This document shows, piece after piece, positions 4,064-55,778 of a stretch of 64,000 bases of DNA. The DNA lies in assembly GCA_964016885.1 (NCBI GenBank), contig OZ024741.1, positions 112,220,001 to 112,284,000 on the forward strand, written 5' to 3'. The translations under genes and the position numbers were made by a program. Under the pieces are notes generated by a model. It made no database searches and had not been told where the DNA came from. It was given only the letters and a program-made list of their open reading frames with translations. The stretch's first letter is position 1, and each line of letters begins with the position of its first letter. This DNA comes from Eledone cirrhosa (taxonomy: Eukaryota).

Positions 4064-4306
4064 ATATATACGTATGTATCTACATGTGTGTGTGTGTGTG
4101 TAAGCATATATATGTGAATATAGTTTTAAAAATACTCTAGTGACACAATGGTACGCGTTGAAAATATATAACACTAACATAAATATAACCGTGAAAATGA
4201 AACTTTGGAAAGCTACCCAAAACTGAAACCAGTCAGTACAAAATGAAATTAGATAACCATGATTATTTATGCAAACATTCATATTGAAAATATATATATA
4301 TATATA

Positions 4307-29740: not shown

Positions 29741-29940
29741 ATCAAAATATAACATTACAAACTTTTAAAACAAAAATTCCCCAACACCGTTGGAGACTTC
29801 AGAGGGTCGGTTGCCAAGAGGATATAAACCGACATCCTCTTGGAAACACCCATGACCAGCCAAAAGGACAGTTCTACTGTCCCTTCACCACACAATCAAG
29901 GTAAGTGATCCTTTCTCACTTACCCCGTTTCTCATCCAAC

Positions 29941-33319: not shown

Positions 33320-33817
33320 ACTGAGGAGTGCGAAAAGTGAGAGAGGGCGCTTGCCTTGGTGGTCAGGGTGGCCGTGGTCTTTTGTGTAGTTTTCACCACG
33401 AGTGACCCTCGGAGATTTCCCCCTTCTTGGGGAATTTTTGTTGTTTGAATTTTTTTTGATTTCTAGCCCGATTTTGTTATAACCTGTTTACACGACCAAA
33501 ACCCACTTTGTATCGTCCTGTACTGTTCTGTGCCGTCTCTAATGTTTTTCTTCGTGTCAGCCCTTGTGGCCAATAAAGAAACCATTATTATTATTATTAT
33601 TATCATTATTATTATTAGTAGTAGTAGTAGTAGTGATAGTAACAGCCTTCTTATTTTTATTGGTTGTCACTGCATTACCGAGCACAGCAACTTTGTGCAC
33701 TTTGTTTTTTCTATTATTTCTATTGAGAGTACTCTTTGTAATATGTGTGCAGTGCCTAGTAGTGCTATTTTCTGTAAGTTGATAATTTGTAAGTTCTGGG
33801 GTTTTGGTTATGTATCT

Positions 33818-34040
33818 ATCATCATCATCATCATCATCATTTTACGTCTGCTTTTCCCTGCTTGCAAGGGTGGGATGGGAACTGATTCTGGCTTGATTTC
33901 TACAGCAGGATACTCTTCCTAACACCAACCTCATTTACAGTGCTGGGTGCTTTTTTTTTCCATGGCGCCTACACGTCCCCTTTACAGTGTGGGCTGGGTG
34001 CTTTTTTGCCGTGGCACCTCTACGACCACTTTGCAGTGGA
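33818..34040 (-). mobile_element. 5'-truncated RTE-family 3' end
   Basis: (CAT)n on + followed by the reverse complement of the 10400-10680 type sequence. Confidence 0.75.
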
Positions 34041-34044
34041 ATGA

Positions 34045-34165
34045 TAGGGACCCCAGGCCTATCATCTCATTTGTACAGCTGAGTAAACTGGAGCAATTTG
34101 AAATAAAGTGTCTTGCTCAAGAAAACAACACATCACCCAGTCTGAGAATTGAACTCACAACCCTA
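34045..34165 (-). mobile_element. CORE-like SINE fragment
   Basis: GAAATAAAGTGTCTTGCTCAAG...GAATTGAACTC matches 5200-5323. Confidence 0.55.
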
Positions 34166-35461
34166 TCTATGTGATATTTCATCATTGTCAGAGAATCTAT
34201 TATTATAGGGTTTGTTTCTGTTTTCATCATCCACATTCACATTATTTCTATCTCCAGATCTCTATTTCTTTGATAGATATATTATTGTCTATGTGGATTA
34301 AAACATCAATTTTTCTGGTCTTTGACTATAATAATATCTGGTAGGTTGGCTTTGATTTCCCTATCTGTGCATCTTGGCATATGCCAGAGTATGGTTGCTT
34401 TGTCATTCTCTGATACCTTCTCTGATGTATGTGTGTACCAAATTTTTTCTGTTGATATTTTGTAGTGTTGGCATAATTTTCAGTGTATGTAACTCCCGAC
34501 TGTTTCGTGTCTGTGGATATATTCTCTTTTTGGCTAAGACTGGACAATCAGAGCAGAGACAATGTAGTTTATTGTTTCTACCCCACCTCCATATATTCTG
34601 TAGTTACACTCTGCATTCTGCTTCATTATGTACTTTTGAGGACTTCTGGTGGGTTGTCTGCAATTAACAATCCTTCTGCCTCGGTCTTTAATCCAATGCA
34701 TTTTAACCAGTTTTTTTTTGCTTGTCCACTCCCTCCCTATTTACCTTTTTTAGCTATTGATCATGCAGGGGTTTTTCTTGTATGCTGGAAATTTGTTTTC
34801 CCATGTAAATATTATTATTTTCTCAATGCCTTTTGCTGTTTATTCTGTGTTTTCTTTTTTCTCATAATTATCTGTCAATTTAGCTTCTGTTTTGAATTTG
34901 TCAGCTGCCTTGAAAACAGATTACTAGAGGATTGATACCTATTACCTTATTCTTTCCATTTAGTTATGTCTTAAGTAATAATCTAATCCCTTGTTAGTAT
35001 TCCTTTCTAATATTTTCTTTCATCTCACTCTGTTGAAACGTGTCTAGTTCATTGATTCCTAAGTATGTTTTTAATCTAATTCTCTTATCTCTGTTTCTTT
35101 ATCCTCCGTATTAATAATGTTATTATTATTAATGTAGTCATATATGAATTATGATGGATTCTTTGTTGGTTTTGACAATGAACATTCATTTCTTTGATCA
35201 ACTGATTGTTCAACTTATGAATTTCACAGACATGTGTACCTTTAACATAATTCCCATAATTAGCATGAGACAATATGTGACATGGTTGGATCTTTGAATT
35301 ACAGGTTCATTTCATCTGATTGGCTTCCACACAGTTTCCATTAACCCAATTTCATTCATGGAATTTTGGTCAACTCAAGTCTATGGTAAATGACACTTGC
35401 CCAAGATGCTATGCAGTGGGCTTGAACCCAAGGCATCATGATTGTGAAGTGAGCTTATTAA

Positions 35462-35687
35462 CCCTTTTGTTACCTACCCACCCCAAACCACCTCTGGTTT
35501 TATGAAACAAAACTACCCTTTTTAAAGTGTTCCTATTTAAATCAAAATCTTCCAACATACTTTTATATAATAACCTTTTAAGTTATATTACAAATACCAT
35601 CTTAATGAAATCATTTTAGTATCATATCAGGTTATTCATAGATTTATTCAAATACACTGTATTTCATTAGATACAGTAATGAAAGGG
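35462..35687. mobile_element. piggyBac-type MITE
   Basis: TTAA-CCCTTTTGTTAC ... GTAATGAAAGGG-TTAA: TTAA TSD and CCC/GGG termini. Confidence 0.75.
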
Positions 35688-36589
35688 TTAATAACATTTT
35701 AGATCCAAACCAAAACCATCTTTGTTATATAATGTATGCTGAGACAAGACAGCCAGTGTGGCTCTTTCCTCTCCAGACTGTTGAATACAACTTGAAACTG
35801 CAGAGAGAATGAATAACTGAAGTGTAATGGTGCATTTGGAGATAGAATGAATGTAGCAACTTAATAATTTTGATACCAACCTGTCCAAAACTGCCTCAGT
35901 AGAAATACAGTAATAAAAGGGTTTATTAATTTCAGGTTTAGTGTGTTTATCATACACCTGTAAAACAAGCATTCAAAAATATATTCTATAATTATTTATA
36001 TGCAAATAATTTCTTTCTAAAGCATCATTTGTTTTATTTAATGTCATATCAAAATGAAGGTAGTGGTGATGGGTGTCCATAAAATATAGGTGTGGGTTTC
36101 AATCGTATAGAGATTTCATGACAAAATAAATTTTAGAAACATTGATTTAAAATACTAATTATTTAATGTGACTGACACAAAGGTTAAATCCTTTCATATT
36201 CTTCATTGATTTATTCTGATACACTGTATTTCATGAGAAATACAGTAAGAGAAGTGTTAATCACTCAGCCATGCCTGCATCTATCTGTGAATTATTATAC
36301 AACAATGGAATATTAAGCAAGGTAGTGAGTGGGTTCTAATCTTGTAGGAAGTGACTGATTTTCATTTATCAGGAATTAATTAGTAAAAAAATAAGTTAGT
36401 CGTTGTCATTAACTCTATGTAAGCTCTGATGAAACAAATATACAATCAAAGACGTTTCAGCCATAACCGTCCCATTTTTTTTTCAGGAATAAAATACTTC
36501 GGATTTGTTTTTTTTATATCTTAGTAATAGAAAGAATAGAAACGCTATACAAAAATATGCAATACTGTGGTGAAAAGAAATGTGTGTAT

Positions 36590-36728
36590 AGGTGCAGGTG
36601 TGGTTCTGTGGTTAAGGATTTTGCTTCGTAATTACATGGTTTCAAATTCAGTCACCCTGTGTGGCACCTTGGGCAAGTGTCCTTTGCTATAGCCTCAGGT
36701 TGACCAATGCTTTGTGAGTGAAATTTGG
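36590..36728 (+). mobile_element. tRNA/CORE-like SINE truncated by the gap
   Basis: TGGTTCTGTGGTTAAG A box and GGCACCTTGGGCAAGTGTC core. Inverse copy at ~35325-35455. Confidence 0.6.
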
Positions 36729-36928
36729 NNNNNNNNNNNNNNNNNNNNNNNNNNNNNNNNNNNNNNNNNNNNNNNNNNNNNNNNNNNNNNNNNNNNNNNN
36801 NNNNNNNNNNNNNNNNNNNNNNNNNNNNNNNNNNNNNNNNNNNNNNNNNNNNNNNNNNNNNNNNNNNNNNNNNNNNNNNNNNNNNNNNNNNNNNNNNNNN
36901 NNNNNNNNNNNNNNNNNNNNNNNNNNNN
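36729..36928. other. Assembly gap (200 N)
   Basis: Run of N. Confidence 1.
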
Positions 36929-37852
36929 GAAACATTGTATTTTAATTATTTAATGAAGATTTTGCGAAAGATTTACTAAAATTATAATTTCATTAAACAG
37001 TATTCATAACATAACAAAATGTTCATCTATAAGATTATGCTAGAAGGTTTTAATTTAAAATGGGTGGTTTTGTTTTATAGAAACGGATATGGTTTTGTGC
37101 AGGCTGGTATCAAAAGGGTTGAAATGTCAAAGTTAGTGAATTCAATTGAAATATTTTCATACAAATATGTACAACATAAATGAAACTAATTTGATCATTG
37201 TTTTATATCTGCATTTGCTTTTATTTGCATGGCAAGATATCCTTTAGAATATAAGAACAATAAAGGGGATATATAAACTTTTCCTGCTGTAAACTATTTG
37301 ACATTGAAAGCTCAAACACTACATAATAATCATTGAGAAATATTTCTATATTTGAATGAAAATTTTAAAATATCTTGTTTTGGTGGGGATAATATGTAAT
37401 GTAAGCTATATATTTTAATGAATATATTGGCATTGTTGTGTGGTTAAGATGTTTGCTTTACAGTTATGTGGCATTAGATACAATCCCACATCATGGCACT
37501 TATTTCCTTTCTTGTATATAACTCCCTTATTTTCCCCGTCTGATACATTGATTATATTTTGTAAAAAGGAAATATTTGGAAAAGTTCACTTACTGTTAAA
37601 AGTAGAAGGCAACGAAGTAACTTTGAGAAATTAATTAACCGTAAAGAGTTATTTATATAATGAAGTGTCACCAATATTGATGAACAGATATAGGCAAGAG
37701 TCTTCTATGATAGCTTGAAGCTGACCAATGTTCTATGAGTGAGTTTGGCAGCTGAAAATTTTAAGAAGCATATCTATCTATCTATTTATCTATCTATATC
37801 CCTCTCTATATATACCTTTAAAATTTATATATATATATATATACATATATAT

Positions 37853-39418
37853 ATCATCATCGCTGATTAACGTCCATTTTTCCATGCTAGCATGGTTTAA
37901 ATGAGTTGTCCTGTTGTGAGATAGTCCAGGTCAGATGTCCATGTCTTGCTCATACAGAACTGATTTTGGCTTAGTTTTTACAGCTGTATAGCCTTCCTAA
38001 TGCCAACCATATGTACAGTGAGTACTGGGTGATTTTTGTCATGACACCTACATGACCACTTTACAGTGTGGGCTGGGTGCTTTTTGTTGACACCTACATG
38101 ACCACATTACAGTATGGTCTGGGTGCTTTCTGTTGTGACAACTACATGACCACTTTACAGAGTGGGCTGGGTGCTATTTATCATGTTGCCATCATGGCCA
38201 CTTTACAGTGTGGGCTGGGGGCTTTGGTGGGAAAGGTGTGTGAGGGGCAGAATGTTAGGACGTGGTAGGTGTATGGAAGGAGGAGATAAAAGTGAAGGTG
38301 GTGCATACCAGATGTATGTATGCTTCAGCCTGTGTTCATGGGAGGTGTATAGGAAGGGGTGGAGGTGAAGGTTATACATACTATATGTATGCTTCAACCT
38401 GTGCTCATGGGAAGCCGGGTCTTCTGTATTAATGTCAGATTTTATCACCTCATCCCAAGTCTTACGGGGTTTTCCTACTCCATAAATTTCATTAACTCTG
38501 AGTGCTCTGTCTCTTTTTATATAGCTGTCATACTTCATACACATGTCCATACCAACACAATCTCCTTTCCTGCACACTGCATCTAATTCTTCTTATGCAT
38601 AGTTTCTCTCTCAGTTCTTTTATGCTTTGCTGTTCATGTATATGTCTATTACACATTGATCAAAGTATGCAAGCTTCATTTCTTTCCAATTTTCGCAAAT
38701 CCTCTGCACACAGCGCCCAGGCTTCACTACCTTGCAACACTGCTGTTCGTATGCACACATCATAGAATCTGCCTTTCATTTTGAAGGAAAAGCCTTTTGT
38801 AGCTAGTAGAGGTAGTAGCACCCTGAACTTCTATCCCATTCTCACTCTGGCTACTGTACTTTCAGAACACCCACAACTGCAGCAGTTCTTTTCCCATGCA
38901 TGAAACCAAACTGCATCTCATCTAATTTGACTTTTTCTCTAATTAGTAGTACTACTATACCTCTTTCCATCACTTTCATAACTTGGGGGGGGGGGGGGGC
39001 TGGAGGTAGTTTTTGTTCCTCTCATTCATTCTCTATATTCATCAGTCTCTCATAGTAACATTTCCAGGCCTCTTCCTTTTGAGCATCAGTGGTGCTAAAT
39101 ACACTGGTGTCGTTTCTAACAGCATCATGATTCAAACTGACACACTGCCTTACAATGTGAAACATTTCATGCCTCTGATCTTCATGTCTAAGGATGTTAG
39201 CAAACTTTCTTTCTTCGAGCTGTATATACTTGTCACCTAGTTTCTCTCTTAGACACCTGGTACTAGTCTCTGCTACCCCTGTTTTTCCAGTCTTTCCAAG
39301 CCTGTCTCTTGGCTTTGATGCCTCTATTAATTGAGCTGTTGAACAACCAGGCCACCCTCAGATTAGTTGGTGCTCTACTTCAGCCACTAATCTCATCAGT
39401 AATTTGCAAAAGCTTGTT
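37853..39418 (-). mobile_element. Older RTE LINE, 3' part (internally deleted), split by RTE copy 2
   Basis: Minus strand: NKLLQITDEISG, LDEMQFG, GCSESTVARVR, GVGKPRKTWDEVIKSD, a 3' UTR with ~5 tandem units, and a GAT tail at 37853. Confidence 0.8.
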
Positions 39419-39557
39419 AAATACGAGGACCTCATTCAATCCTTACCTTATAGCTATCTACCCCCCCCCCCCACGCACCACCATTGTTATTACGTGGACC
39501 AATCATAAGCCAGAGCCCCCACGCACCACCATTATTATTACGTGGACATTATTATTA

Positions 39558-39750
39558 AGGGCGGTGAATTGGCAGTATCGGTAGAGGGTTGGACGCCATG
39601 CTTTCTAGCATAGTTACGTCCCTTTACGGTTTGAGTTCAAATCCCGCTGAGGTTAACTTTGCCTTTCATCCTTACGGGGTCGATAAAATAAAGTACCAGT
39701 AATGTACTGGGTAATTGCTGGCCTTGTGCCTAAAGTAGAAACAATTATTA
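39558..39750 (+). mobile_element. ATT-tailed tRNA SINE inserted in the RTE 5' region
   Basis: Full-length copy; ATTATTATTACGTGGAC is duplicated at 39531-39547 and 39744-39760. Confidence 0.9.
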
Positions 39751-39881
39751 TTACGTGGACCAATCATAAGCCAGAGGCTTTTACTATCGCTTGCCTGGTT
39801 GCCTTTCGATATATGATGGATGGATGGACTACGGAATCCTGGAGAGTGGAAGAGAGAGAAAAATCTGGACGCTCAGCGACA

Positions 39882-42800
39882 ATGCCAAAGATAAAGACAA
39901 ATTCACCCCATGGACGAGAATGCGAGCACTCCTCTTTGTTTCGGCCGCGGATGGCTAACATAATCCCATCTCCCCCCGCCCCCCACCGCTCCCACCCTCC
40001 AAAAGCAATCCAAAGCTTCAGAGTTGGTACCATAAATGTAGGCACCTTAAAGGGTCGCGCTAACGAGGTTGTAGAAATGCTTGAACGTAAGGAGGTCGAT
40101 GTTTGTTGTATTCAAGAGACCAGGTGGAGGGGTGGGTCTGCTAGATTCATAGAGGGTAAAAAACGATGCTATAAGCTTTTCTGGGTGGGAAATGACGATG
40201 GGCTGAGTGGAGTAAAAATCATGGTAGCAGAAAAGTGGGCAGATAAGATAATAGACGTAAATAGAGTGAACGACAGAATAATTAAAATAAGACTTGTCCT
40301 CAATAGAACTACGGTGACAGTAATATCTGCGTACGCACCCCAATCCGGACTGCCCGGCACTATAAAAGACAGATTCTATGAGACACTGATGCTCACTACC
40401 TCCCAGTGACTATATAATTATTGCAGGCGACCTAAATGGTCACGTTGGACAACATTGTGATGGCTACGACGAAATCCATGGAGGCTATGGGTTTGATACT
40501 AGAAATAAGGAAGGCTCCAGAATCCTGGAATTCTGTGACGCAAATAACCTAACCATCTGTAACACTAACTTCAAAAAACGTGACAATCACCTGATCACCT
40601 ATAGATCCGGGGAACACACAAGCCAGGTAGATTATATCCTTACCAGAAGACGCGACAGAGTGTCTGTTGTAAACACTAAATCCCTCCCCCATGAAGAATG
40701 CACCCCCCAACATAGACTGATAATTAGCGACCTCATAGTCAGGACGAGACGTACCCGAAAGCAGAAGAGGACTATCCTCAGGAGAAAAATATGGAATCTA
40801 AAGGACCCCACAGCCAGAAATAAATTCCAAAGCATATTACTTGATGCTTTCGACAGTAAGGAAGAGCATTTAGAGTCAGACAATATAGAGGGACAGTGGG
40901 AATTCCTGAAGGCAAACCTGCTGATGGCGGCAGACGAAGTCTGTGGCTGGAGCAGGCCTGTAGGCAGGAGGAGAGTAACATGGTGGTGGAACAGTAAGGT
41001 GGAGGGGTCAATTAAGGCCAAAAAGCAGGCTTGGAAAGTATGGCGGGATGGGGGAAGTAGAGAAGACTATCAAGTGGCCAGGAGGGAAGCTAAGAGACAT
41101 GTGTACTTCGCAAGAAGGGAAGCAGAGGAAAGAAAGTTCAAGCATGTTCTACAACGCGAGGACCAAAAACATGAGGTGTTCAGGATTGCTAGGCAATGTG
41201 TCAAGGAAAACCGTGATATTGTCGGGGAGAAGTGTGTACTTAATGATGACGGCGTACTTGCCATCACCGACGCTGATAAGAAGGTAGCTTGGAAGTGTCA
41301 CTATGAAAGGCTACTAAATGAGGAGAATAAATGGGAGAAAGACAGTCTCCCCCACATCGACCCAATAGAGGGACCAGCAGTGTTAGTCGAGGGTAGTATA
41401 ATAAGTAAGGCAATCAAGGATATGAAGACGGGTAAGGCAGCTGGGCCTTCGGAAATAGTTGCTGAGATGCTGAAGGCATCTGGCACAGTGGGACACACCA
41501 TGGTCACCCGGATAGTTAACCAAGTCGTACAGAATGGGGTTGTTCCGAAGGACTGGCGTAGCAGCATCATCGTTAACTGTTATAAGGGTAAAGGAGATGC
41601 CCTAGATAGGAGTAACTATAGAGGCATTAAATTAATCGACCAGGTCATGAAGGTCACGGAAAAAGTAATAGCGCAACTAATCAGAGAGAGAATTGACCTA
41701 GATGAAATGCAGTTCGGGTTTGTGTCAGGCAAAAGTACCACAGACACTCTTTTCATTGTACGACAACTATAGGAGAAGTACCTAGCTAAAAGTAACCCCC
41801 TCTACTTAGCTTTTGTCGACTTGGAGAAAGCCTTCGACAGAGTCCCCCGTTCCATTATCTGGTGGGCTCTTAGAAAACTAGGTGTCGACGAATGGCTTGT
41901 GAGAGCTATACAAGCCATGTATAAAGAAACAGTCAGCAAGGTTAGAATTAACAACGAATATAGTGAAGAGTTTAGCGTAAAAGTTGGCCTCCATCAGGGC
42001 TCTGTTCTCAGCCTCCTACTATTTATTATTGCCCTTCAGGCTATAACAGAGGAGTTCAAGACCGGCTGCCCATGGGAACTCCTATACGCAGACGACCTAA
42101 CACTCATAGCTGAATCAATGGCCGAGCTAGAGAAGAAATTCCAAACATGGAAGCACGGCCTAGAATCAAAAGGCCTTAAAATTAATCTGGCTAAGACCAA
42201 AGTTCTAGTTTGTAGGAAAGAAAATAAGGCGGCGGTCCCTTCCGGAAAGTGGCCATGCTCAGTGTGTAGGAAAGGCGTAGGTAGAAACTCCATTTTGTGT
42301 CAGAAATGCAAAGTATGGGTGCATAAAAGATGTAGTGGGATCACAGGTAAGTTAACTAAGAACATAGATTTCACATGTGGCCGGTGCTCTGGTGCAATAA
42401 GTAGCAGCAAGTGCCCACTAAATACTAGCTCTTTCAACTACGCAGAGGGCTCTATAGAAATAGTGGACAGCTTCCGTTACCTGGGTGACAAAATCAGCAG
42501 TGGGGGAGGGTGCTCTGAAAGTACAGTAGCTAGAGTCAGAACTGGATGGAAAAAGTTCAGAGAGCTTATACCACTATTAGCCGCTAAAGGGTTCTCCCTA
42601 AAAATGAAAGGCAGGTTGTATGATGCCTGCATACGAACAGCAATGTTGCATGGCAGTGAGACCTGGGCATTGTGTGCAGAGGATATACGCAGACTAGAGA
42701 GGAACGAAGCTTGCATGCTCCGCTGGATGTGTAATAGTAATATACGTGAACGGCAAAGCATAAACGAACTAAGGAAAAAATTAGAAATAAGAGGGATCAG

Positions 42801-43041
42801 ATGTTGTTTACTCGAGAGAAGGCTACGTTGGTATGGACACGTGATGCGCATGAAAGTCGATAGCTGTATAACAAAGTGCAGGGCAATAAAGATAGACGGT
42901 AGCCATGGAATAGGCAGACCTAGAAAAACCTGGGATGAGCTGATAAACTCCGACCTCACACACTTACACCTCTCCAAGACAATGTCATTGGACCGAGACC
43001 TTTGGCGGTACTCAGTAATAGAGAAGACCCGCCTTACCTAA
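39882..43041 (+). pseudogene. APE-RT(-PHD) polyprotein of RTE copy 2, two visible lesions
   Basis: ORF pieces ending at 40409, then 40660-41772 and 41821-43041. The start codon is uncertain. Confidence 0.9.
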
Positions 43042-43437
43042 ATACATAGTAAAACCTACTACAGTCAGTAGGCATCTCTAACAAAATACACCCCCGTCCC
43101 ACCCACCCCACCCCATCCACACCGCCCCCTTCTATGTAAAGTTGTTTTGGTGCCACAACATCCAGGCCGAAACAAATGAGATCGTGTAGGTGTCACGACA
43201 AAAAAAACACACAGTCCACGCTGTAATGTGGCCGTGTAGGCAACACGGTAAAAACCTCCCAGTCCCACACTGTAAATGTGGTTGGTGTTAGGAAGGGCAT
43301 CCAACTGTAGAAAACCTGCCAGACAGTCCTATGCGAGCAAGACAATCACTCTTGCCTCAAGTGGGAAAACCCCCCGTCCAAACCCATGCAAGCGTGGAAC
43401 ACGGACGTTAAACGTTGATGATGATGATGATGATGAT

Positions 43438-44260
43438 GTCACATCAGAATTTCCTGTTGTCTTCTACATCGTAGGTATCTAGCTCGTCACTTCTCTCATC
43501 AAATGCATCCCATATGGCCATTCTAAATTTATATATAACTGAGAGTCCTTTAGCTTCCAGACCCCCCCCCCCCCCCTCACCATCTCCATATTTTTCTGTG
43601 TTTTGTTCTGTCTTGTGCTTATTTTTATGTCACTAATAACTAATTTGTTTTGAGAAATGCATTCTTCCTCAGGGAATGCTTTAGTATTTATTACAGTCCG
43701 TTTGTCATGTTGTCTAACAAGTAAATAATCAATTTGGCTTTTGCATTCACCTGAATGATATGTGATCATATGGCTGGCTGATTTCTTGAAATTTGTGACG
43801 CAAATAGTTGGTTCATTAGCATTCCAGGAGTCTCAATCCCTCTTCATTTCTTGAGCCATAACCATAGCCACCACGAACTCCACTGAATCCATCATGGTAA
43901 TGCCCACATTGACCATTGAAGTCACTTGCCAAGATGATGAGGTCACCTTTATTGGTGCCTGAAGTCATCTGTAAAAGTTCTTCATAGAACCTGTCTTTTT
44001 GTTCTTTACTCTGTCTGGTCTGTGGGGCATAGGTAGATGTAATTGACACCATTCTATTTCCTACTGCTAATCTAAGCTTGATAATTATGTTGCTTACTCT
44101 TACTTCTATCACTTTATCTATCCATTTCTCAGCTAGTAAGATGCATACACCTCCTATCCCATCGTCATTTCCTATCCAGTAAAGCTTGTATCTATGATGT
44201 TTGCCTGTCAGTAGTCTTGCTGAGGCACCCTCCATCTCACACAATTTACCTCATCATTGA
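43438..44260 (-). mobile_element. Older RTE LINE, APE part; continues at 39418
   Basis: YKLYWIGNDDGIGGV, STYAPQ, DFNG, GYGYGSRNEEG, SQIDYLL, DAFDERSDELDTYDVED. Confidence 0.85.
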
Positions 44261-45366: not shown

Positions 45367-45374
45367 GGACCAGC

Positions 45375-45409
<35 letters not shown>

Positions 45410-45618
45410 TATATATATACACATTGTTTCCGAGGCTGAACAGCAGAATGGATGTATTTTATCCAGGCTAATACTATGGAATTGCACAACTTATTGATTA
45501 ATCAATACAACGATAATATCTTAGTTTATTTTGCCCTTTGAAGCAATCATAAAGCAATTGATTAATTAAGTACTTAACTTTGTCTTATTTGCTTTCATTC
45601 TTCAACATTATTTATATA

Positions 45619-45689
<71 letters not shown>

Positions 45690-45737
45690 ACATTATTTAT
45701 ACATATATGGATGCTAAACAATGATGTTGATGATATA

Positions 45738-46070
45738 TATTTGACAACTGAATTGAATTAGCAGCTTTAACTATACTCTTTTTACTACAGAAAATAGTCT
45801 AATAACGGGGCATATAAGCTCCCATAATTGGAGACAATGCGTATCAGCACACATAGAAATCAAACTCACACCTCTTATTTTAATGATGAATGTACTGGAT
45901 CAAATGAACAACTATTTTCATATGTGTGCTCGCTGATTATACCAATTGGTGTAATTGACTAGCAGACTGATTGCAAAAATAAGAGATGCATGCTGATACC
46001 CCTTTTTTCTGCTTATTTTCTGTTGAAAAAAATATGGTGAAAGCTGTTAATTCAATTCAATTTTCAAATC
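45738..46070. repeat. Degenerate inverted-repeat element
   Basis: TTTGACAACTGAATTGAATTAGCAGCTTT...CAGAAAATA versus TATTTTCTG...AAAGCTGTTAATTCAATTCAATTTTCAAA. Confidence 0.5.
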
Positions 46071-46107
46071 TCAGTTGCCACCATCTTGTAAACAACATTA
46101 GATTTGC

Positions 46108-46144
<37 letters not shown>

Positions 46145-46182
46145 TAAAAAAAAGAAAATTTCGCTCTACATGGCTGAATACA

Positions 46183-46428
46183 ATAAATGTAATCTGATTT
46201 TTTCGAATATTAATAATAACATTCGATTCGTTTGCAATTATGCAAACAAGCCTCAATTTTATAGCCATGTCAGTAGAATGAACACTTCATTTTTGCTCTT
46301 CGCATGCCAACACAAGAGCAAGAATGAAGTGTTCATTCTACTGACATGGCTATAAAATTGAGGCTTGTCTGCATAATTGCAAACGAATCGAATGTTATTA
46401 ATATTCGAAAAACTCAGATTACATTTAT
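46183..46428. repeat. Near-perfect long hairpin (~117-bp arms, 13-nt loop)
   Basis: 46183-46300 versus 46314-46428. The ORFs on the two strands share translated segments, which confirms the palindrome. Confidence 0.95.
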
Positions 46429-46957
46429 ATATATATAAACATTTTACTTCCATTTTTCCATACTTCCATAGATATGTGTGTATTGGTGTTGATACTATTT
46501 TATTCTCTTTACATTTGAACTGATGGCCTAGGCAGTGATAATTGTTTACATTCATGCAAACAATTATCATTGCTCAGTGTTTAGACATGTGATGATCATA
46601 TACACAAGTGTTACATTTATCTATCATTTTATTTCTTCTCTCTTCCAAACATCCTGTAGTCTTATACTTATTCTCTCTTCCAATGAGGAATTATTTTCTG
46701 AAACATTAAGAATCTTTTACTACTATATCAAGTACTAAAGTAATATATATCCTCATTGTATTGTATTGTTCTTCCATGTTATTTTTCCTTGTTGACATTT
46801 CTTATGCATTCATATATATATATATATTCTTGTTTAAACATTAATTCTGGATTTATGCTATGTGATTCAAAGGATACCGTTGAGTCAAACTCTCTTGTAA
46901 GCAGCTTTCTTGTTTAAATATTCATTCCGGATATACATAAACAAAACCTTATCTACC

Positions 46958-46999
<42 letters not shown>

Positions 47000-48039
47000 C
47001 AAATATACATATATGCATGTATGTATGTGTGTGTGTGTATGTGTGCTTAATCACACATACCCAGATATAGACATATATATGCATTGGTGTATAAAGAATA
47101 AAAAAATATAACTCTAAAATTATTTATGAGAATAACAAAAATGACGATTTCATTTGGTGGAAATATTATTGAAATATATATAAGAGGCAGATAAACAAAT
47201 GATAAGAATTTACATCACCATAGTTTATATTAAATCAATATCTAAGAAAATAGATTAAAATATTTAAGATATAGAATAAAATAATGATAACAATGAAAAA
47301 CCTGCCTAAATTAAATGAGCTAGGACCAATTCAGTATATATCATGAATATTCATGTTTAAGGAACCTTGAACAACAACACAACTAGTGCTTTTACACTTT
47401 GGATTCCAACCCTCCTGGAACTGCCAAGTTTTTTTTTTTATAAAACAATGCATTTCATTTTAAAGTGTTTATATATATATATATATATATAAACCTTCCA
47501 CAAAAATTCCAAGTATGAACCTTTTGATAAGTTTCAGACAACAGCTTAATGCAAAAGTTAGTTATTTTTGTAAGCCATTCTGAATTGTTGATTATTTTCA
47601 AAATTAATTCAAAGTCATAGGCAGTGTCTTTCATTAGGAATATGGTAACCAAATGGGTAAGACCATTTTCCTAGCTAAAGCAGGAGTTAGACTTACAGGC
47701 CTCATGACAGCCTACTTGGCAATGGAAGCCGTTTTGCAGTCAGATGCCCTTGTGGCACCAAACGTTTTAGTTACCTCCAATGACATGCAGTGATATGGTG
47801 CACCAATTCTAAACTGGATATACACAGAGAATCTTAAAACTTACTGACACATAATAATTACTGATGAAGAAGATTATTTTTCTTATTGGTTTATCATATT
47901 CATTATCATCCTTATCATTGATATCATTATTATTGCTGTTACATGGTTTTAATGTTCTGGCCAGTATAAATATGCTTCCAATTGTGCCACAACCCATGGC
48001 TGAGGATGAGGAGCATTCTTGTCCTTTCTTTTATTAGGA

Positions 48040-48500
48040 TTCTCTCATACTGTTCATAGCTATCCCCATTTTCAGTTCAGAACACTGGATAATACTTGCT
48101 GATTAAATTAAACAAAGTTTTTGTACTGTATCTACTCCAATATTCAGATCTAGTTTCACAAGGTTTACTTTCAAATTCTTTTTTACAGTTCCCAAGGCTT
48201 CAATGAAAATTGGCAAGATTATGATCTTGTCAACTTCTTCCAGCACTTGAGAATTTCATATTGCAAGTCTGTGTAATATTCTACATTTTCTCTCTCCTTT
48301 TTTTTTCTTTTTGTTACTCTGACATCAAATGGATATGTCAATTACCAGATATACCTTTTTCTTCTTACCAACAATCCCAATATCTGACTTGTGCTGCATT
48401 TTCTTTTCAGTTTGTATGGAAAATCCCATAGAAGTTGCACTTTGTATTTTTCAAGAATTTAATTTCTGCTCCCACACAATGGTCATAGTTATTTTCTGTG
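48040..48500 (-). pseudogene. Old R4/Dong restriction-like endonuclease fragment
   Basis: Minus pieces (frameshifted) resembling LLWDF, IQTEKK, DIGIVGKKKKVYLVIDI, IILPIFIEALGTV. Confidence 0.55.
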
Positions 48501-48509
48501 TATGCAAAA

Positions 48510-49375
48510 CCTGGCAGTATCAGCAGAGCACCGGACACCATGCTTTGTGGCATACAGTTATGGCCCTTTACATTCTGAGTTCAAATCCCTCCGAGGTAGC
48601 TTTGCTTTTCATCCTTACAAGGTCGATAAAATAAAGTACCAATAAGTACTGGGGTGATTTAATCGACTTTCCCTTTCCCTTCAAATTGCTGGTCTTGTGC
48701 CTAAAGTTGAAACAATTATTATTATTATTATTTCATTACAGTCCTTTATGTTCTGGTTTCAAATCTTGCCAAAGTTAGCTTTACTTTTAATCCTCCTGGG
48801 ATCAATAAACTAAAGTACCAGTAACATATTTAATCGATTTTCACTCACCAAAATTGTTGGCCTTGTGCCAAAATCAGAAACCATTATTATTGTTATTATT
48901 TCCTTGCAAGCAGGGAAAAGCGGACGCAAAATGATGATGATGATGATGATGTGGCCTTTATTATTAAAGTAATCTTTGCCTTTCTTACTTACAGGGGCGA
49001 TTAAATATAGCACCGGTAATGCACTGGGATAATTGCTGGCCCTGTGCCAAAAGTAGAAACAATTATTTCATTGTGGCGTGTATGTTCAGGTTCCAAATTA
49101 CACTTTCATCAACTTTGTATTTCATCCTCCTGGGATGGGTAAAATAAAGTACCAGTAAAGTACTGGGGTCGATTTAATCAACTTTCCCTTTCCTGCAAAA
49201 ATTGTTGAGCTTAAATTAGAAATCGTTATTATTAAAGTCAAATTTGCCTTTCATACTTACGGGATCAATAAAATAAAGCACCAGCAATGCACTGGGGTCG
49301 ATTTAATCGACTTTCCCCTCCCACAATATTGCTGGCTTTGTGCCCATAGTAGAAATCATTATTATTATTATTGTT
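48510..49375 (+). mobile_element. Head-to-tail array of ~5 ATT-tailed SINE copies/fragments
   Basis: Repeated AAAGTACCAG ... GCCTTGTGCC..AGAAAC-ATTATT modules separated by ATT runs. Confidence 0.85.
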
Positions 49376-50439
49376 ACTATCATTATTTATTAATTAATAT
49401 AAAGAGATTAGTAAAAATCTACAAAACTTCTCTATCTCACTAATTAACTTTGTCAATTCCAATTAGTGTTGTTGTTATTATCATAGTTGTTATGTTTTAA
49501 ATCTGTTTGTCTATTTATTTACTTATTTTGTTTGTATGCGTGTGTCCATATTAGTTATTAGATATGTTTAGTTATTGATTTATTTATTTGTTATTAGTAT
49601 TATTATTATTATTAGTTAGCCATTGATTTGTTTGTTTGTATCAACAGCACTGGGGTATTATTCTTTTATCTTCTTCCTCGTTAATATATGCTTCGGTTGA
49701 TTATTCTAAGGTGAGAGTTAATAAGTAAGTGGATGGGTGGGTGGGAAAATCAATAATCTATAGTGTTCTTCACAATTAACTTACACTGCCCCCTTCATTG
49801 TATCAAACACACTCCTTTATGCTTGTTAGGTTTTCTTTACATGTTTGTTTGTTTGTTACATTAATAGCTTTAATAATACCAGCAGCAACATATGCAACAA
49901 CAGATGCAGCAACAATAGCAGCAACAACAACAGCAAGAGCTAACATGGATTCTTTTGTGAATATTACAAAAAAGAAAAAGGCAATGACAAAAAGAAAAAA
50001 AAACCCAAAACCATCACTGTCCCATTGTTGTTGTTGATTGTTGTTGATAGGATCAGATAATTCATTTTTGTTTTATTTCTGGAAATATTTGCAATAAAAA
50101 TATGTTGGTGATGATAGTGGTGGTGGGTGGGATAATAATGATAAGGAGATTAATGCTTTAAAAGCTGTTATTGTTAGTGATGATGAAAATGAAGATAATA
50201 ATGAGGAGGAGGAAGTTATGAATGAAGAGGATATAAAAAAAAAGGGATGGCGGTGATAATCATAATTATAATAATTAATGATAGTGATGATAACAGTGAT
50301 GAAAAAAAATTCATCACTTAAGATAAAAAATAAATTTAATAATAATAATATGAAAATATTAATGGTATCAATGATGAATGATAAAATGATAATAATGTTG
50401 AAAAAATATGATAATAATTATACCAATAATATCAATGAT

Positions 50440-51422
50440 GGTTTATAGCTTTGGCATAAAGCCTGAAAATTGTATGGGAGAAACATAATTGATGTAGTTG
50501 ACCTGGGTGGTATGCAACTTATTTTGCTTATTCATTTATTGTTTTTTTTAAAACCCTGGAAGCATGAAAGGCAAAATTAACCCAAGTGGTGTACAAAATG
50601 AAACCATAAATGGAGAGGGCTAAATGCCACAAGTGATTTCATCTGTTGTCCTATTATTTCCATTTCTCCCCTTCTTTTTTAATAATTGATTCTACTTTTT
50701 CGCACAAGGCCAGCAATTATCCCAGTGTATTACTGGTGCTTTATTTTATCAACCCAGTAAGGATGAAAGGTAACCTCGGCAGGATCTGAACTCAGAACGT
50801 AAAGGGCCATAACTCTATACTGCAAAGCATGGTGTCTGATGTTCTACCGATACTGCCAATAATAATTGTTTCTACTTTAGGCACAAGGCCAGCAATTACC
50901 CAGTGCATCACTGGTACTTTATTTTATCGACCCCGTAATAATAATGATGATGTTTGTGATGATGATAACAACAATAATAATAATTGCTATTTCTACATTT
51001 GTCACAAGGCCAGCAATTTGATGGAAATTGGGAAAGTCAGTTAAATCTACACAGTGCAATACTGGTGTTTTATTTTATTGACCCTGTAAGGATGAAAGGC
51101 AAAGCTAACATCAGCAGGATTTGAACTTAGAATATAACAGACTATAACTATATTTTTCAAAGCACGTTGTCTGATGCTCTGCCGATACTGCCAATCCCCT
51201 GAATAATAGCAATAATAATAACAATAATGAGGCACAAGACCAGAAATTTGGGTGGCAGCTGGGTTATTCAAAAATATTGATCACACTACTTTAATGGTAA
51301 TTTATTTTATTGATTCTGGTAGAATGAAAGGCAAAGTTGACTTTGGCAATAACAATAAAAATTGTTTCTACTTTTGGCACAAGGCCAGCAATTACTCCAG
51401 TATGTTACTGGTACTTTATTTT
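50440..51422 (-). mobile_element. Array of ~6 ATT-tailed SINE copies/fragments, opposite orientation
   Basis: Repeated TTTCTAC..GGCACAAGGCCAGCAAT and GGATGAAAGGCAAAG modules. Confidence 0.85.
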
Positions 51423-51519
51423 CATAATAATGATAAAAACCATTATTCATTTGACACTATTATTACTTATTGGACAATAATGTGGAATTTCTACCAAATG
51501 CATAGCCACCTTTTTGGCT

Positions 51520-51838
51520 CTAGAGGTACTTTACCCAATTTTCTCAACTATCATTTGTAGTGATTGACTATTCTTATAGTCATTTACGTTGGGACGACTA
51601 CATATCAGATTTCAAATTTTCCCAATGTTTCTTGAGTTGACTGAATATTCACACTTTTAACTACAGGTTTAAAATCTTCTGAAAAATGGTAATTGGTTGC
51701 AGGGACCCCTTAGTGTAAAGGTTAACATACTTGTCTGGTATCCTAGAGATGCAGGGTTCAATTCCTTGTCCAGAATCTCTCAACTCTTTTCCATCTTCAG
51801 AGATACTTTACCTGATTTGCTAAACTGTTATTTATAAT
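51520..51838 (+). repeat. Tandem (~278-bp period) tRNA-like repeat
   Basis: AGAGRTACTTTACC..TT recurs at ~51522 and ~51800. tRNA-like 51702-51772 (TAGTGTAAAGG; GGTTCAATTCC). Confidence 0.55.
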
Positions 51839-52381
51839 AATTTTATTTAGAGTAAAAAAAAAAAAGGTATAGAAAATGACTATGATAATGATGATGATAA
51901 TATAATGATATTTTAATAAGTAGGAGGAACCTGTTGAAGTAAAAGGCCAAGGTGGGAAGGGTTAGAAGCTGATCTGAAGATGCTGAACCTCAAAAAAAAG
52001 ATGGTAATGGTCCACAACTAGGGTAGGGGTGACAAGGGAAATGGTATGCTGGGTCAAATGCTGTTCAACCTATTCTAGCGTCGGGTGAGGGAATGAGTGA
52101 GGGTGTTGGGGATGTAAAATCATGATTATGATGATGATGATGATGAATCATGATTCCTAAGTTTTTTCTAATATTGATTACTAACATAATAAGAACAACA
52201 ACAATAATAGTGATGATTATAATGATGATAATAATAACAATAATAAAAATAACTACGATTAGGATGATAAGGAAAAATTAACAATATAAAATAAATATTC
52301 TGACAAGGTCAATAACAACAACAGTACAAAAATCTGAGATAAATATCTATTGGAGAAAATTGGTAAAAACAAAATAAAATG

Positions 52382-52384
<3 letters not shown>

Positions 52385-52458
<74 letters not shown>

Positions 52459-52544
52459 TAGAAAAAAAAGTGTGGGTGTATGTGTAAGAAAGAGTGAGAG
52501 ATACACACATATATATATATATGTGGACATGTAAACACACACAC

Positions 52545-52594
<50 letters not shown>

Positions 52595-52720
52595 CGTGTG
52601 TGTATGAGAGAGGTACAGGCAGATATACAGATAGGTAGAGAATAAAAGCTTAAAGACATTAAAATTACACCTTCAAACTGAACCTTGTGCTTTAAAGATA
52701 CTTTAAATTGACAGTGTAGA

Positions 52721-52777
<57 letters not shown>

Positions 52778-53740
52778 TCGTGGTGGAAGGAACAGGAGTG
52801 GGGATGATGGAGTTGAGGACTAGTATTGTCTGAATAGGAGGAGAGACAGAGAGAAGAAGGCTGACAATCAATATTGAGCTGTCTGATATTCTCTACTAAA
52901 GTTGTTGGTAAACAATAACAATAGGGACCAGCTTTTGCTGGCTTCTTTCTTGTTGACTGGATATTTGGGAGTTGGTATTGTTATTGATGATGGTACTGGT
53001 GATAATGATAGTGATGGTGGTGGTGGTGGTTATGTTGGTGATGCTAGTGGTGTTTGTTGTTGGTAATGTTGGCGGCTTGTTGTTGAGGATGTTGGAAATG
53101 GCAGTGACAGATGTGGTAGTGTTTCTTGTTGGTGGTGATGGTGATAGCAGAGGTGTTGCTGGTGGTATTTGTTGTTACTATTGTTGTTACTATTGTTGTT
53201 GCTGTTATTGATGGAACAATAATATTGGTGATAGTGGTGATACTGTTTGTTGTTATTGCTATTGATAATGGTGATAATAATGTTGGTGATGGTGAGGATT
53301 ACGTTGTTGTTGTTGTTGGTGGTGGTGAGGGCGGGGTGATATTTGATGTTATTGATGGTGATGATGTTTGTTGTTATTGTTGTTGATGGTGGTGGTGATG
53401 TTGGTGCTGGTACTGATGGAGGTGGGGCATGGTGTTTCTATAGTTGGTTTGGTTTCTTTATTTTAGCTGGAGATCACTTGTGAAATAAAAGAGAGAAATA
53501 AAATGAAAAGCACAAATAATCATCACATCAGCACAAGAATTTTAAAAGATAAAAAAAAAAAGTAGGAAATAAAATGAAAATAAAAACAACCTCCGATTTA
53601 TTGGCTTGGAAATTTATGGGCGGAAAATTTCATTATCTACTGACGACAAAGTAATTGCTTTTCCTCTTTGCTTTGTTTATTATTATTATTATTATTATTA
53701 TCATCATCATCATCATCATTATTATTATCATTATTGTATT
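52385..53740. repeat. Simple-repeat tract: (TA)n, (GA)n, (TG)n, (GGT/GTT/GAT)n, (ATT)n
   Basis: Directly visible. Confidence 0.85.
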
Positions 53741-53949
53741 TTCCCCTCCCTCCAGACAACTTCTATTTAAAATGTTTAAAGCTATCATTGTGTGTCTGTG
53801 TGTGAGTACGGAGGGATGTGGTTTATTTTGTGTTTTTATTATTGTTTAAGTATAGTAAAAGATGTGGCAAGCACCATGATATGATGATAACATCTCCCAG
53901 CTGTGCTCATATAAAAAAGTATTATTATTTGGACTAAATGCTTTACCTG

Positions 53950-55778
53950 GCATCTTTAGTTACAGAATATTCACAATCCTGAGTTCAAATAATGTAGAGG
54001 TTGGCTTTAACTTTTGTTTTAAGGTCAATAAAATAAGTACCAGTCAAGTACTGGGTGTCAATTTGATTGACTTGTTTTCACCTACCTAACAAATTTTTAG
54101 ATTTGTGTCAATGATAGAAACAATTATTATTATTACTATTATTAGGGGGAGGAGGAGGGCAGTAGATTGACAAAATCAATTGGTAGAACGTCAGACAACA
54201 TGCTTGGTGGCATAGAGTTACGGCCCTTTACGTTCTGAGTTCAAATCCTGCTGCGGTTAGCTTTGCCTTTCAGCCTTACGGGGTCAACCAGTAATGGTTG
54301 ATTTAATCGACTTTCCTCTCCTCTCAAATTGCTGGCCTTGTGCCTAAATCAGAAATCATTATTAAAATTAGGAGGGCTGAGGATTGGTAGTATTGGTAGA
54401 GCATTGAACAACATGCTTTGTGGCATATAGTTATGGTCCTTTATATTTTGAGTTCAAATCCCACCAAGGTTAGCTTTGCCATTCATCCTTACGGAGTTAA
54501 TAAAGTCAAGTACCAGTAATGCACAGGTGTTAGTTGAAACAAATTTCCCCTTACTTTCAAATTGCTGGCCTTGTGCCAAATGTAAAAACAATTATCGGTA
54601 AAGGGTCGGATGCCATGCTTTGCAGCAAAGAGTTACGGCCCTTTATGGTCTGGGTTCAAATCCCGCCGAGGTTAACTTTGCCTTTCATCCTTACGGGGTC
54701 AATAAAATATAATACCAGTAATGTACTGGGTAATTTGCTGGCCATGTACCAAAAGTAGAAACAATTATTATTAGTATTGCCTTTCATTCTTATGGGGTCG
54801 ATAAGATAAAGCACCAATAATGCACTGGGATCAATTTAATCGACTTTCCTCTCCCATGAAATTGCTGATCTTGTGCTTAAATTAGAAATCCTTATCATTA
54901 TTGTTGTTGTTTAGTCAGTAGATTGGTAGAATTACTAAAGCATCAAACAAAAGGCTTTAGAATTTGTCTGTTCTACTAATCTATCACCTTCTGTGGTACT
55001 CAATAATAATACAAATAATAATTTCTACCATTGAAACAAGAGAATCAAGAGATATCTACTTTAAGCACAAGGCCAACAATTTTGCCTATCATCATTCTGG
55101 GGTCAATTGAATAAAGTACCAATCAAGTACTAAGGTCAAGGCCTTGTGACTAAATTAGAAACCATTAAGAAAGGGCAGTAAATATCAGAATCAGTAACCC
55201 AAGAGAATGTCAGACAAAAGATCTTGTGGTATTTATTTATGTCCCTCTATATTGTAAGTTCAAATTAAACCTGGTTCTACTTTGCCACATTTTTTCTTCT
55301 GTGGTCGATAAAATAAGAATTAGTTAAGTGTTGATGTTGATTTCATTTATGGATTCTTGTATTTTTAGGTTCTCTTGTTTCAATCATAGAAATTATTATT
55401 TGTATTATTATTGAGTACCACAGAAGGTGATAGATTAGTAGAATTGTTAGAGTATCAGACAAAATTTTGTGTGGCATTTAATTACACCTCTTTATGTTCT
55501 GAATTAAAATCCTGCTGAGTTCACATTTTCACTTTAATCTTCCTGGGTTGATAATTTAAAGTACCAATCAAGTACTGCAGTTGATTTAATTGATAGTTGT
55601 GTGTCTGAATTGGGTCCATTATTGATGCTTTGACGCATAGAGTTACGGCCCTTGTCATTCTGAGTTCAAATGGTGCCGAGGTTAACTTTGCCTTTCATCC
55701 TTACGGGGTCGATAAAATAAAGTACCAGTAATGCACTGAGTAATTGCTGGCCTTGCGCCAAAAGTAGAAACAATTATT
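53950..55778 (+). mobile_element. Head-to-tail array of ~9 ATT-tailed SINE copies of mixed divergence
   Basis: Well-preserved copies at ~54155, 54375, 54593 and 55625, with degenerate copies between them. Confidence 0.85.

What the first reader, a model, noticed from the sequence alone, without database searches (positions are those of the whole stretch)
33556..55778. Candidate Tx1-SINE partnership: shared 3' end and ATT targeting
The Tx1 ends GCCCTTGTGGCCAATAAAGAAACC-(ATT)n. The abundant tRNA SINE ends GGCCTTGTG-CCAAAATCAGAAACC-(ATT)n (~48860), or GGCCTTGTGCCTAAAGTAGAAACA-(ATT)n. SINEs typically borrow the 3' end of the LINE that mobilises them. This SINE also has ATT at its 5' flank (39548) and piles up in ATT runs. 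Together this suggests a site-specific SINE driven by a Tx1 LINE, a pairing I do not recall as common (usual partners are L2, CR1, RTE and L1). The match is only ~25 nt.
Basis: partly seen in the sequence, partly recalled or inferred. Interest (0 to 1): 0.75.

Follow-up and report, generated by a model that had tools for sequence, protein, structure and literature searches.

The report
Abundant SINE borrows Tx1 retrotransposon tail
A short jumping repeat with over 150,000 copies in this (likely octopod) genome ends in the same 24-base motif, predicted to fold as a small RNA hairpin, and leaves the same ATTAT-started target duplications as a group of Tx1-type long retrotransposons, so it is likely copied by their enzyme, a tail-sharing partnership I did not find described for Tx1 elements.

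Summary
The Tx1-clade LINE (27741-33583) and the SINE match at 17-18 of their last 24 bases without gaps (P about 1e-6). Ten non-Tx1 LINE ends give 4-12. Two mismatches form one compensatory pair in a predicted CUUGU-loop hairpin, which six Tx1 families keep although their 3'UTRs diverge upstream. Genome-wide, ATTAT follows 123,857 of 150,743 exact SINE tails and 14,394 of 20,487 Tx1-type tails. SINE target duplications (48 of 109; shuffled mean 2.3; median 16 nt) start at (C/T)|ATTAT, as do five of six readable Tx1 duplications (10-19 nt).

Corrections: the ATT next to the SINE is mostly target, not tail. The young SINE mostly lands at a lone ATTAT (4 of 30 in ATT repeats, against 48 of 60 Tx1 copies). 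The tail cannot name which Tx1 family is the partner.

Best reading (0.87): ORF2p of ATT-targeting Tx1 families mobilises the SINE; no assay supports this yet. Precedents are SINEU/Tx1-Mar (target only) and three plant/algal L1-tail SINEs. This scan reported the same pair before on other DNA of this genome (8 notes).

The parts
27741..33583 (+). Full-length, decayed Tx1-clade LINE (family 'A' here): ORF1 from about 27933, ORF2 from about 29942 (APE endonuclease, RT, C-terminal zinc motif; broken by stops and frameshifts), 3'UTR about 33320-33583
   Evidence: Pfam Exo_endo_phos at 29905-30537 and RVT_1 at 31812-32216; 5' end shared with other copies; tblastn to a sister-family ORF2
27722..27740 (+). 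(ATT)6 run at the 5' junction of the Tx1 (target duplication and/or co-transcribed repeat)
33560..33583 (+). Tx1 3' terminal motif: GCC-CTTGT-GGC predicted hairpin, AATAAA, GAAA-NN
33584..33617 (+). (ATT)n run after the Tx1 end
39469..39516 (+). 48-nt tandem duplicate of the SINE's target: an empty-site copy
39531..39547 (+). 5' target-site duplication (17 nt, starts ATTATT) of the SINE at 39557, followed by 9 extra ATT bases (39548-39556)
39557..39743 (+). Full-length short-tail SINE (187 nt): A-box-like 39570, B-box-like 39635, central body, GGC-CTTGT-GCC predicted hairpin tail
39744..39760 (+). 3' target-site duplication of that SINE
48508..49364 (+). Pile of five same-strand SINE copies (long- and short-tail, mostly 5'-truncated), including the copy ending at 48882
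50433..51422 (-). Pile of six minus-strand SINE hits
53930..55779 (+). Pile of nine plus-strand SINE hits, the last ending at 55772
3852..4064 (+). Further SINE copy (long tail) outside the finding
4365..4560 (-). Further SINE copy (short tail) outside the finding

Best explanation
The SINE and a group of Tx1-clade LINEs share a 24-nt 3' end and an ATTAT-started target duplication, and the SINE is likely copied in trans by the ORF2 protein of the ATT-targeting Tx1 families, which is predicted to recognise a CUUGU-loop hairpin at a fixed distance from the RNA end. Steps: (1) Pol III transcribes the SINE from its A/B boxes (inferred from motifs). (2) ORF2p binds the hairpin-spacer-GAAA tail (inferred from conservation and covariation, by analogy with ZfL2). 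(3) The APE endonuclease nicks the bottom strand at (C/T)|ATTAT (position shown by the duplications; enzyme inferred). (4) AUUAU of the RNA pairs with the nicked strand and reverse transcription starts exactly after GAAA-NN (precise end shown; pairing inferred). (5) The second strand is cut about 10-22 nt downstream, giving the duplication (shown). (6) Each insertion leaves GAAAN(C/A)|ATTAT, a new target, so SINEs and Tx1s stack head-to-tail (arrays shown; cause inferred).
For: Tail identity 17-18 of 24 end-anchored against the window Tx1, versus 4-12 of 24 for 10 non-Tx1 LINE ends. The motif is what six Tx1 families share while their upstream 3'UTRs differ. Stem pairs covary: C-G in 9 Tx1 rows against G-C in 6 SINE rows; G-C against A-U in family B; 88% of cells paired, 0 of 500 shuffles as high, slid registers 18-58%. 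The hairpin is in the minimum-energy fold of 6 of 6 tails. ATTAT follows 123,857 of 150,743 SINE tails, 61 of 79 random SINE ends against a background of 0.0027, 14,394 of 20,487 Tx1-type tails and 28 of 35 protein-selected Tx1 copies. SINE duplications: 48 of 109, shuffled mean 2.3, max 7, median 16 nt, 39 of 48 start ATTAT, preceded by C in 30 or T in 13 of 44. Tx1 duplications in unique DNA: 14, 18, 15, 19, 10 and about 16 nt (L237 junction). In L237 a SINE and a Tx1 share one nested duplication. 9 of 35 Tx1 copies are followed within 60 nt by a same-strand SINE, none by an opposite one; 14 of 32 Tx1 5' ends lie just after a SINE or Tx1 tail. 26 same-strand against 0 opposite adjacent SINE pairs. 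Divergences overlap: SINE 0.046 and 0.066; Tx1 A 0.035-0.081, B 0.025, C 0.071.
Against: Only 24 nt and a 3-4 bp stem are shared. The folds are no more stable than shuffles except in one Tx1 family, mean pairing probability is 0.29-0.38 for the SINE, and the centroid of the 39743 tail is unpaired. The covariation rests on about three independent events, and related rows inflate the shuffle test (pairs changed on both sides, 118 of 500 shuffles as high). Target use differs: a match of at least 10 of 12 to (ATT)4 follows 4 of 30 young SINEs, 15 of 30 long-tail SINEs and 23 of 79 random SINEs, but 21 of 25 and 27 of 35 Tx1 copies (run lengths p=5.5e-4). TATC/TATA-targeting Tx1 families F and G match the tail equally well (16-18 of 24), and single comparisons with families B and C were weak (P 0.16 and 0.044). 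Many truncated Tx1 copies show no readable duplication. No L2 end was in the comparison set. There is no assay.
Confidence: 0.87

Rival explanations
1. The partner is a Tx1-clade family that was not sampled, with a SINE-type stem and a looser ATTAT target; the window's family is only a relative.
For: The SINE's second stem pair is inverted relative to all six sampled Tx1 families. Young SINEs avoid long ATT runs, unlike families A-C. LINE sampling covered only 600 kb of random DNA plus targeted loci.
Against: A genome-wide pattern for a SINE-type stem with the Tx1 AATAAA-GAAA end found 29 places: by my reading 19 point mutants of known Tx1 families, 9 SINE copies and 1 unrelated. An exact hybrid pattern found none. 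All 30 short-tail and 30 long-tail loci had SINE sequence upstream. Such a family would have to be extinct or lack AATAAA.
Confidence: 0.06
2. The SINE is mobilised by the abundant Dong/R4 LINEs, which also sit in ATT/AAT repeats, and the tail match to Tx1 is incidental or historical.
For: Dong ends often lie tail-to-tail with Tx1 and SINE ends in the same repeats.
Against: Dong ends are followed by AAT on their sense strand (12 of 20 AATAATAAT, the rest AAC/AAT variants), the opposite polarity to the SINE. Four Dong ends give 5-11 of 24 and non-significant local scores.
Confidence: 0.02
3. The motif is shared by descent or convergence but is not a recognition signal: Tx1 ORF2p is relaxed, like mammalian L1, and takes any RNA that can pair with ATTAT.
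For: L1-clade LINEs rarely share tails with SINEs (3 cases among more than 800 LINEs, PMC3472496). The hairpin is weak. In Tx1 the AATAAA may be conserved as a polyadenylation signal.
Against: Loop, stem pairing and spacing are kept across six LINE families with two target classes and two SINE subfamilies, and the SINE lacks AATAAA yet keeps loop and GAAA. SINE copies end at one precise base.
Confidence: 0.05

Closest known systems
SINEU / Tx1-Mar of crocodilians (Kojima 2015, PMC4494074; abstract and passages seen)
   Same: A SINE proposed to be mobilised by a target-preferring Tx1 group, argued from shared targets and overlapping ages; tandem insertions sandwiching a duplication.
   Different: SINEU has snRNA heads and poly(A) tails, targets a Mariner element and numbers thousands of copies; the passages I read claim no shared 3' tail. 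Here the head is tRNA-like, the 3' motif is shared with covarying pairs, the target is ATTAT, and there are over 150,000 copies.
Stringent L1-clade pairs: maize LINE1-1_ZM with ZmSINE2/3, Chlamydomonas L1-1_CR with SINEX-3_CR (Ohshima 2012, PMC3472496; parts 1-2 of 3 read)
   Same: An L1-group LINE with a conserved 3' end, a hairpin with compensatory changes and a conserved loop, shared with SINEs.
   Different: Plants and algae, poly(A) ends, 50-80 nt shared, no target specificity described. Here an animal Tx1 lineage, 24 nt shared, sequence-specific target.
Stringent L2 LINEs ZfL2-1/ZfL2-2 (PMC4176376, abstract only) and eel UnaL2/UnaSINE (cited in PMC3747384 section 1.4; details recalled)
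   Same: Model for the mechanism: ORF2p binds a 3' stem-loop, with the stem read generally and the loop specifically.
   Different: L2 clade and experimentally shown; not tested for this element.
Microsatellite-targeting Tx1 families Kibi (TC)n and Koshi (TTC)n (described in PMC4494074 passages)
   Same: Tx1-clade LINEs specific for simple repeats; the best named protein hits are Xenopus Tx1 ORF2 and a Tetraodon pol-like protein.
   Different: Targets here are ATT (families A-C) or TATA/TATC repeats (D, F, G); the passages I read report no SINE partner for Kibi or Koshi.
Published octopus SINE complement (tRNA-Core, tRNA-Deu, unclassified; PMC8967140 passages, PMC13282606 part 1 of 3)
   Same: Very abundant SINEs, and active L1-Tx1 and Dong-R4 families, in octopus genomes.
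   Different: No partner LINE or target is named in what I read; I could not match this SINE to a named family (OK, OR1, OR2 sequences not available).

Membership tests
Tx1 clade LINE | ORF2 with APE endonuclease, RT and C-terminal zinc motif | tested here: met
   Exo_endo_phos and RVT_1 in the window; zf-RVT in a family A copy, L082, and in family B
Tx1 clade LINE | ORF1 with a CCHC zinc knuckle | tested here: inconclusive
   A C-x2-C-x4-H-x4-C string is visible in an ORF1 frame of L089, but Pfam called nothing there
Tx1 clade LINE | RT groups with Tx1 rather than with L1 | tested here: met
   A family B ORF2 stretch scores 251 bits on Xenopus Tx1 ORF2 and 265 on Tetraodon Q76IM5 against about 150 on human L1 ORF2p (different databases). 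Quick tree: families A-D form one clade (100) inside a 48-row group (91) with Xenopus Tx1; no human L1 row, careful tree unfinished
Tx1 clade LINE | Target-sequence preference | tested here: met
   28 of 35 protein-selected copies followed by ATTAT; 29 of 32 5' ends preceded by ATT
tRNA-derived SINE | Short, non-coding, interspersed, 5'-truncated copies with target duplications | tested here: met
   187-222 nt; 134 hits covering 3.2% of 600 kb random DNA; duplications
tRNA-derived SINE | tRNA-related head with A and B boxes | tested here: inconclusive
   A- and B-box-like motifs 53-55 nt apart in 3 of 3 copies; ARAGORN found no tRNA and Rfam no tRNA match
tRNA-derived SINE | Pol III transcription | not testable with these tools
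   No read data examined
Stringent SINE/LINE pair | Shared 3'-terminal sequence, better than with other LINE clades | tested here: met
   (6 Tx1 ends, 10 other ends; no L2 sampled)
Stringent SINE/LINE pair | Conserved 3' stem-loop with compensatory changes | tested here: met
   the stem is short and energetically weak
Stringent SINE/LINE pair | Same insertion signature | tested here: met
   Same ATTAT start and overlapping duplication lengths; repeat context differs
Stringent SINE/LINE pair | Concurrent activity | tested here: inconclusive
   Half pairwise distances overlap, but the sets are small and differently selected
Stringent SINE/LINE pair | Tail-dependent trans-mobilisation | not testable with these tools
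   Needs an assay
MetaSINE / Nin-DC / CORE superfamily | Conserved central domain | tested here: inconclusive
   By eye no likeness to the BivaMeta alignments (part 1 of 4) or the Lottia Nin rows; SepiaSINE2 is not in the supplement text; no alignment was run
Dong/R4-mobilised SINE | Tail match and AAT polarity of Dong | tested here: not met

The most novel reading that the evidence does not exclude
Animal Tx1 LINEs are stringent, hairpin-reading elements, and one of them drives the largest SINE expansion of this genome. In trans the same enzyme needs only a (C/T)|ATTAT site, while the LINE itself stays in (ATT)n. The SINE thus escapes the microsatellite niche, spreads into unique DNA, and seeds new landing pads that are then used by more SINEs and by the Tx1 LINEs themselves.
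Probability: 0.4. Interest if true: 0.72.

Novelty: new variant of a known kind. Interest (0 to 1): 0.56.

Why it matters
It would name the engine behind one of the most abundant repeats of an octopod-like genome (about 3% of sampled DNA), for which I found no partner in print. It would extend tail-dependent (stringent) RNA recognition to an animal Tx1/L1-group lineage, which bears on whether the relaxed poly(A) recognition of mammalian L1 is derived. It gives a compact test system: a 24-nt cis signal with natural compensatory variants, and sister enzymes that read the same tail but cut ATT or TATC targets. It also explains the head-to-tail piles of SINEs and LINEs.

Tried and rejected
DNA search of the genome with the SINE returned nothing because common words are skipped; random stretches and exact patterns were used instead. 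The first Tx1 copy set was biased because the query held 17 nt of ATT; flank counts were redone on protein-selected and pattern-selected copies. The first SINE duplication count (29 of 143) required an ATT-like 3' flank and was redone without that; a few of the 48 there are doubtful (one overlaps the SINE head, some come from one pile). In one search two pairs of loci are duplicates, so 11 of 30 is about 9 independent. In one search, 5 of 40 copies had no matching end motif (4 truncated or interrupted, 1 with an indel) and were left out of the counts. Automated searches for Tx1 duplications found one in 74 copies; the others were read by eye from 70 short copies and checked. Searches for a Tx1 family with a SINE-type stem found none. 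ARAGORN and Rfam gave no tRNA match. Sequencing runs: no RNA holder listed; nothing was laid. The careful tree did not finish. A literature search by a sequence motif gave only unrelated papers. Not-in-print claim rests on searches of an open-access library; Repbase reports, SINEBase tables, Ohshima and Okada 1994/2005, Akasaki 2010, Kojima and Fujiwara 2004, the figures of PMC4824008 and the supplements of PMC3472496 and PMC13282606 were not seen and could hold this pair.
Full report
Setting. The window is G000:C2:112,220,001-112,284,000 of a 3.0 Gb animal genome. The repeat content (Dong/R4, RTE, CR1-like, Penelope-like, Tx1, abundant SINEs) looks like an octopod; that label is inference.

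The LINE. A 5,843-nt element runs from 27741 to 33583 with (ATT)n on both sides. It encodes an APE endonuclease and RT, now broken. A sister-family ORF2 stretch scores 251 bits on Xenopus Tx1 ORF2 and 265 on Tetraodon Q76IM5, against about 150 on human L1 ORF2p. A quick tree puts four local families in one clade (support 100) within a group that holds Xenopus Tx1 (support 91); the careful tree did not finish and no human L1 row was included. The family is abundant, and Tx1-type sequence covers 34,054 of 600,000 randomly sampled bases.

The SINE. Copies are 187-222 nt, with A- and B-box-like motifs 53-55 nt apart, a central body and two tail variants (short; long, with an extra block of about 30 nt). 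ARAGORN and Rfam do not recognise the head, so 'tRNA-derived' rests on the boxes. There are 134 hits covering 3.2% of the random sample, 150,743 exact short-type tails and 15,086 exact long-type tails. I could not assign the central domain to a named superfamily.

The shared end. Aligned without gaps from the last base, four SINE copies match the window Tx1 at 17, 18, 18 and 18 of 24 (P 3e-6 to 3e-7). Four Dong, four RTE and two CR1-like ends give 4-12 of 24 and local scores of 8-18; the best of these, a CR1-like end, is borderline (P 0.04-0.07). The six Tx1 ends give local scores of 16-30. Six Tx1 families share this terminal motif while their upstream 3'UTRs diverge. Families A, B and C are followed by ATT; D, F and G are followed by TATA/TATC repeats, so the motif is a lineage signal and not a by-product of the target. 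The motif reads stem-CTTGT-stem, then a spacer, GAAA and two bases. Stems are GCC/GGC (A), AACC/GGTT (B), GGCC/GGCC (C), TGCC/GGCA (D, loop CTGGT) and GGC/GCC or TGGC/GCCA (SINE). On a 15-row alignment 88% of cells pair, three of four pairs change on both sides, and slid registers give 18-58%; these are only about three independent events. The hairpin is in the minimum-energy fold of 6 of 6 tails, but it is weak: only family G beats shuffles, and SINE pairing probability averages 0.29-0.38.

The target. ATTAT follows 123,857 of 150,743 SINE tails and 14,394 of 20,487 Tx1-type tails, a set that includes the TATC families; background is 0.0027. Without requiring ATT, 48 of 109 SINEs show an informative duplication (shuffled mean 2.3, max 7), median 16 nt, 39 starting ATTAT, with C (30) or T (13) before it in 44 sites. 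Long-tail SINEs give 11 of 30, about 9 independent. At 39557 the duplication is 17 nt and an upstream tandem duplicate preserves the empty site. So the ATT after the SINE is mostly target. Tx1 duplications are usually hidden in repeats; six readable ones measure 14, 18, 15, 19, 10 and about 16 nt, five of them with a 3' copy starting ATTAT and one ATTGT. In L237 a SINE and a truncated Tx1 share one nested duplication.

Arrays and age. Adjacent SINE hits lie on the same strand in 26 cases and on opposite strands in none. Nine of 35 Tx1 copies are followed within 60 nt by a same-strand SINE, and 14 of 32 Tx1 5' ends directly follow a SINE or Tx1 tail. This fits regeneration of the target at each new 3' end (inference). 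Half pairwise distances overlap (SINE short 0.046, long 0.066; Tx1 A 0.035-0.081, B 0.025, C 0.071), on small and differently selected sets.

Against. The young SINE is mostly not in ATT repeats (4 of 30; long-tail 15 of 30; random 23 of 79), whereas Tx1 copies are (21 of 25; 27 of 35). This may reflect more AUU units on LINE RNA, a cis/trans difference, or an unsampled partner. A genome-wide search for a LINE-type end with the SINE's stem gave 29 places, none a separate family by my reading. The tail matches TATC-type families as well as ATT-type ones, so only the target picks A-C. Many truncated Tx1 copies have rearranged 5' ends and no readable duplication. Dong uses the same repeats from the other strand and has no tail match. 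No L2 end was sampled.

Mechanism. Shown: shared end, covarying stems, precise ends, shared cut position, overlapping duplication lengths, same-strand arrays. Inferred: Pol III transcription, hairpin recognition by ORF2p (by analogy with ZfL2, PMC4176376, abstract), nicking by the APE domain, AUUAU priming, and trans-mobilisation. Confidence 0.87.

Known relatives. SINEU was assigned to Tx1-Mar on shared targets and ages (PMC4494074, passages). A survey found 3 SINEs with L1-clade tails among 58 pairs, all plant or algal, one lineage with a compensatory hairpin (PMC3472496, parts 1-2; PMC3747384 section 1.4). A bivalve survey names CR1, CR1-Zenon, L2 and Nimb partners and does not contain the word Tx1 (PMC11481361, passages), nor does Kojima 2018 (PMC5786205, listing and passages). 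Octopus repeat papers list abundant SINEs and L1-Tx1 without pairing them in the parts read (PMC13282606 part 1; PMC8967140 passages). PMC4824008 (passages, section 9, supplement part 1), PMC4758252 (passages, supplement search) and PMC3531059 (passages) gave no match for this SINE. I did not find this pairing in searches; Repbase and several subscription papers were not available.

Earlier scan notes. Eight unreviewed notes on other DNA of this genome report the same pair. My hairpin and target reading was recorded before I saw them. They are repeats of the idea, not independent support; the squid claim in one of them I could not test.

Verdict. A real feature and a new variant of a known kind: a tail-sharing, target-sharing SINE/LINE pair in which the LINE is an animal Tx1. 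Interest 0.56.

Noticed in passing
window 39469-39516: A 48-nt tandem duplicate of the SINE's target site, one copy empty and one filled: a built-in empty-site control.
   Followed up: yes
window about 39790-43440 and about 12.9-16.5k (+): Two RTE-like LINEs with a PHD-finger match inside the RT region, ending in (GAT)n; the first starts about 30 nt after the SINE's 3' duplication.
   Followed up: partly
window about 47950-48500 (-) and about 34200-35100 (-): Decayed Dong/R4-like fragments (read by eye); the first ends in AAT on its own strand.
   Followed up: partly
L170-L189, L225, L226, L236, L240, L242: Tx1 families D, F and G keep the same tail hairpin but are followed by TATA/TATC repeats; D follows a longer repeated unit and is very young (half pairwise distance 0.007, best-match selected).
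   Followed up: partly
L051, L052, L071, L081, L083, L088: Tx1 and SINE 3' ends lie tail-to-tail with Dong 3' ends in the same ATT/AAT repeat.
   Followed up: partly
L068, L104, L096, L237: Nested insertions with three copies of one target duplication, showing repeated use of a single site.
   Followed up: yes
L055, L059, L065, L068, L080, L140: Full-length Tx1 copies often have ATTATC just before their 5' end and extra ATT units beyond the duplication, suggesting co-transcribed upstream repeats.
   Followed up: no
window about 34030-34140 (-) and about 36590-36730 (+): Fragments of other short repeats, possibly CORE-type SINEs (recalled likeness, not tested).
   Followed up: no
L146: The 5' flank of this truncated Tx1 looks like inverted Tx1 sequence, as in twin priming (read by eye).
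   Followed up: no
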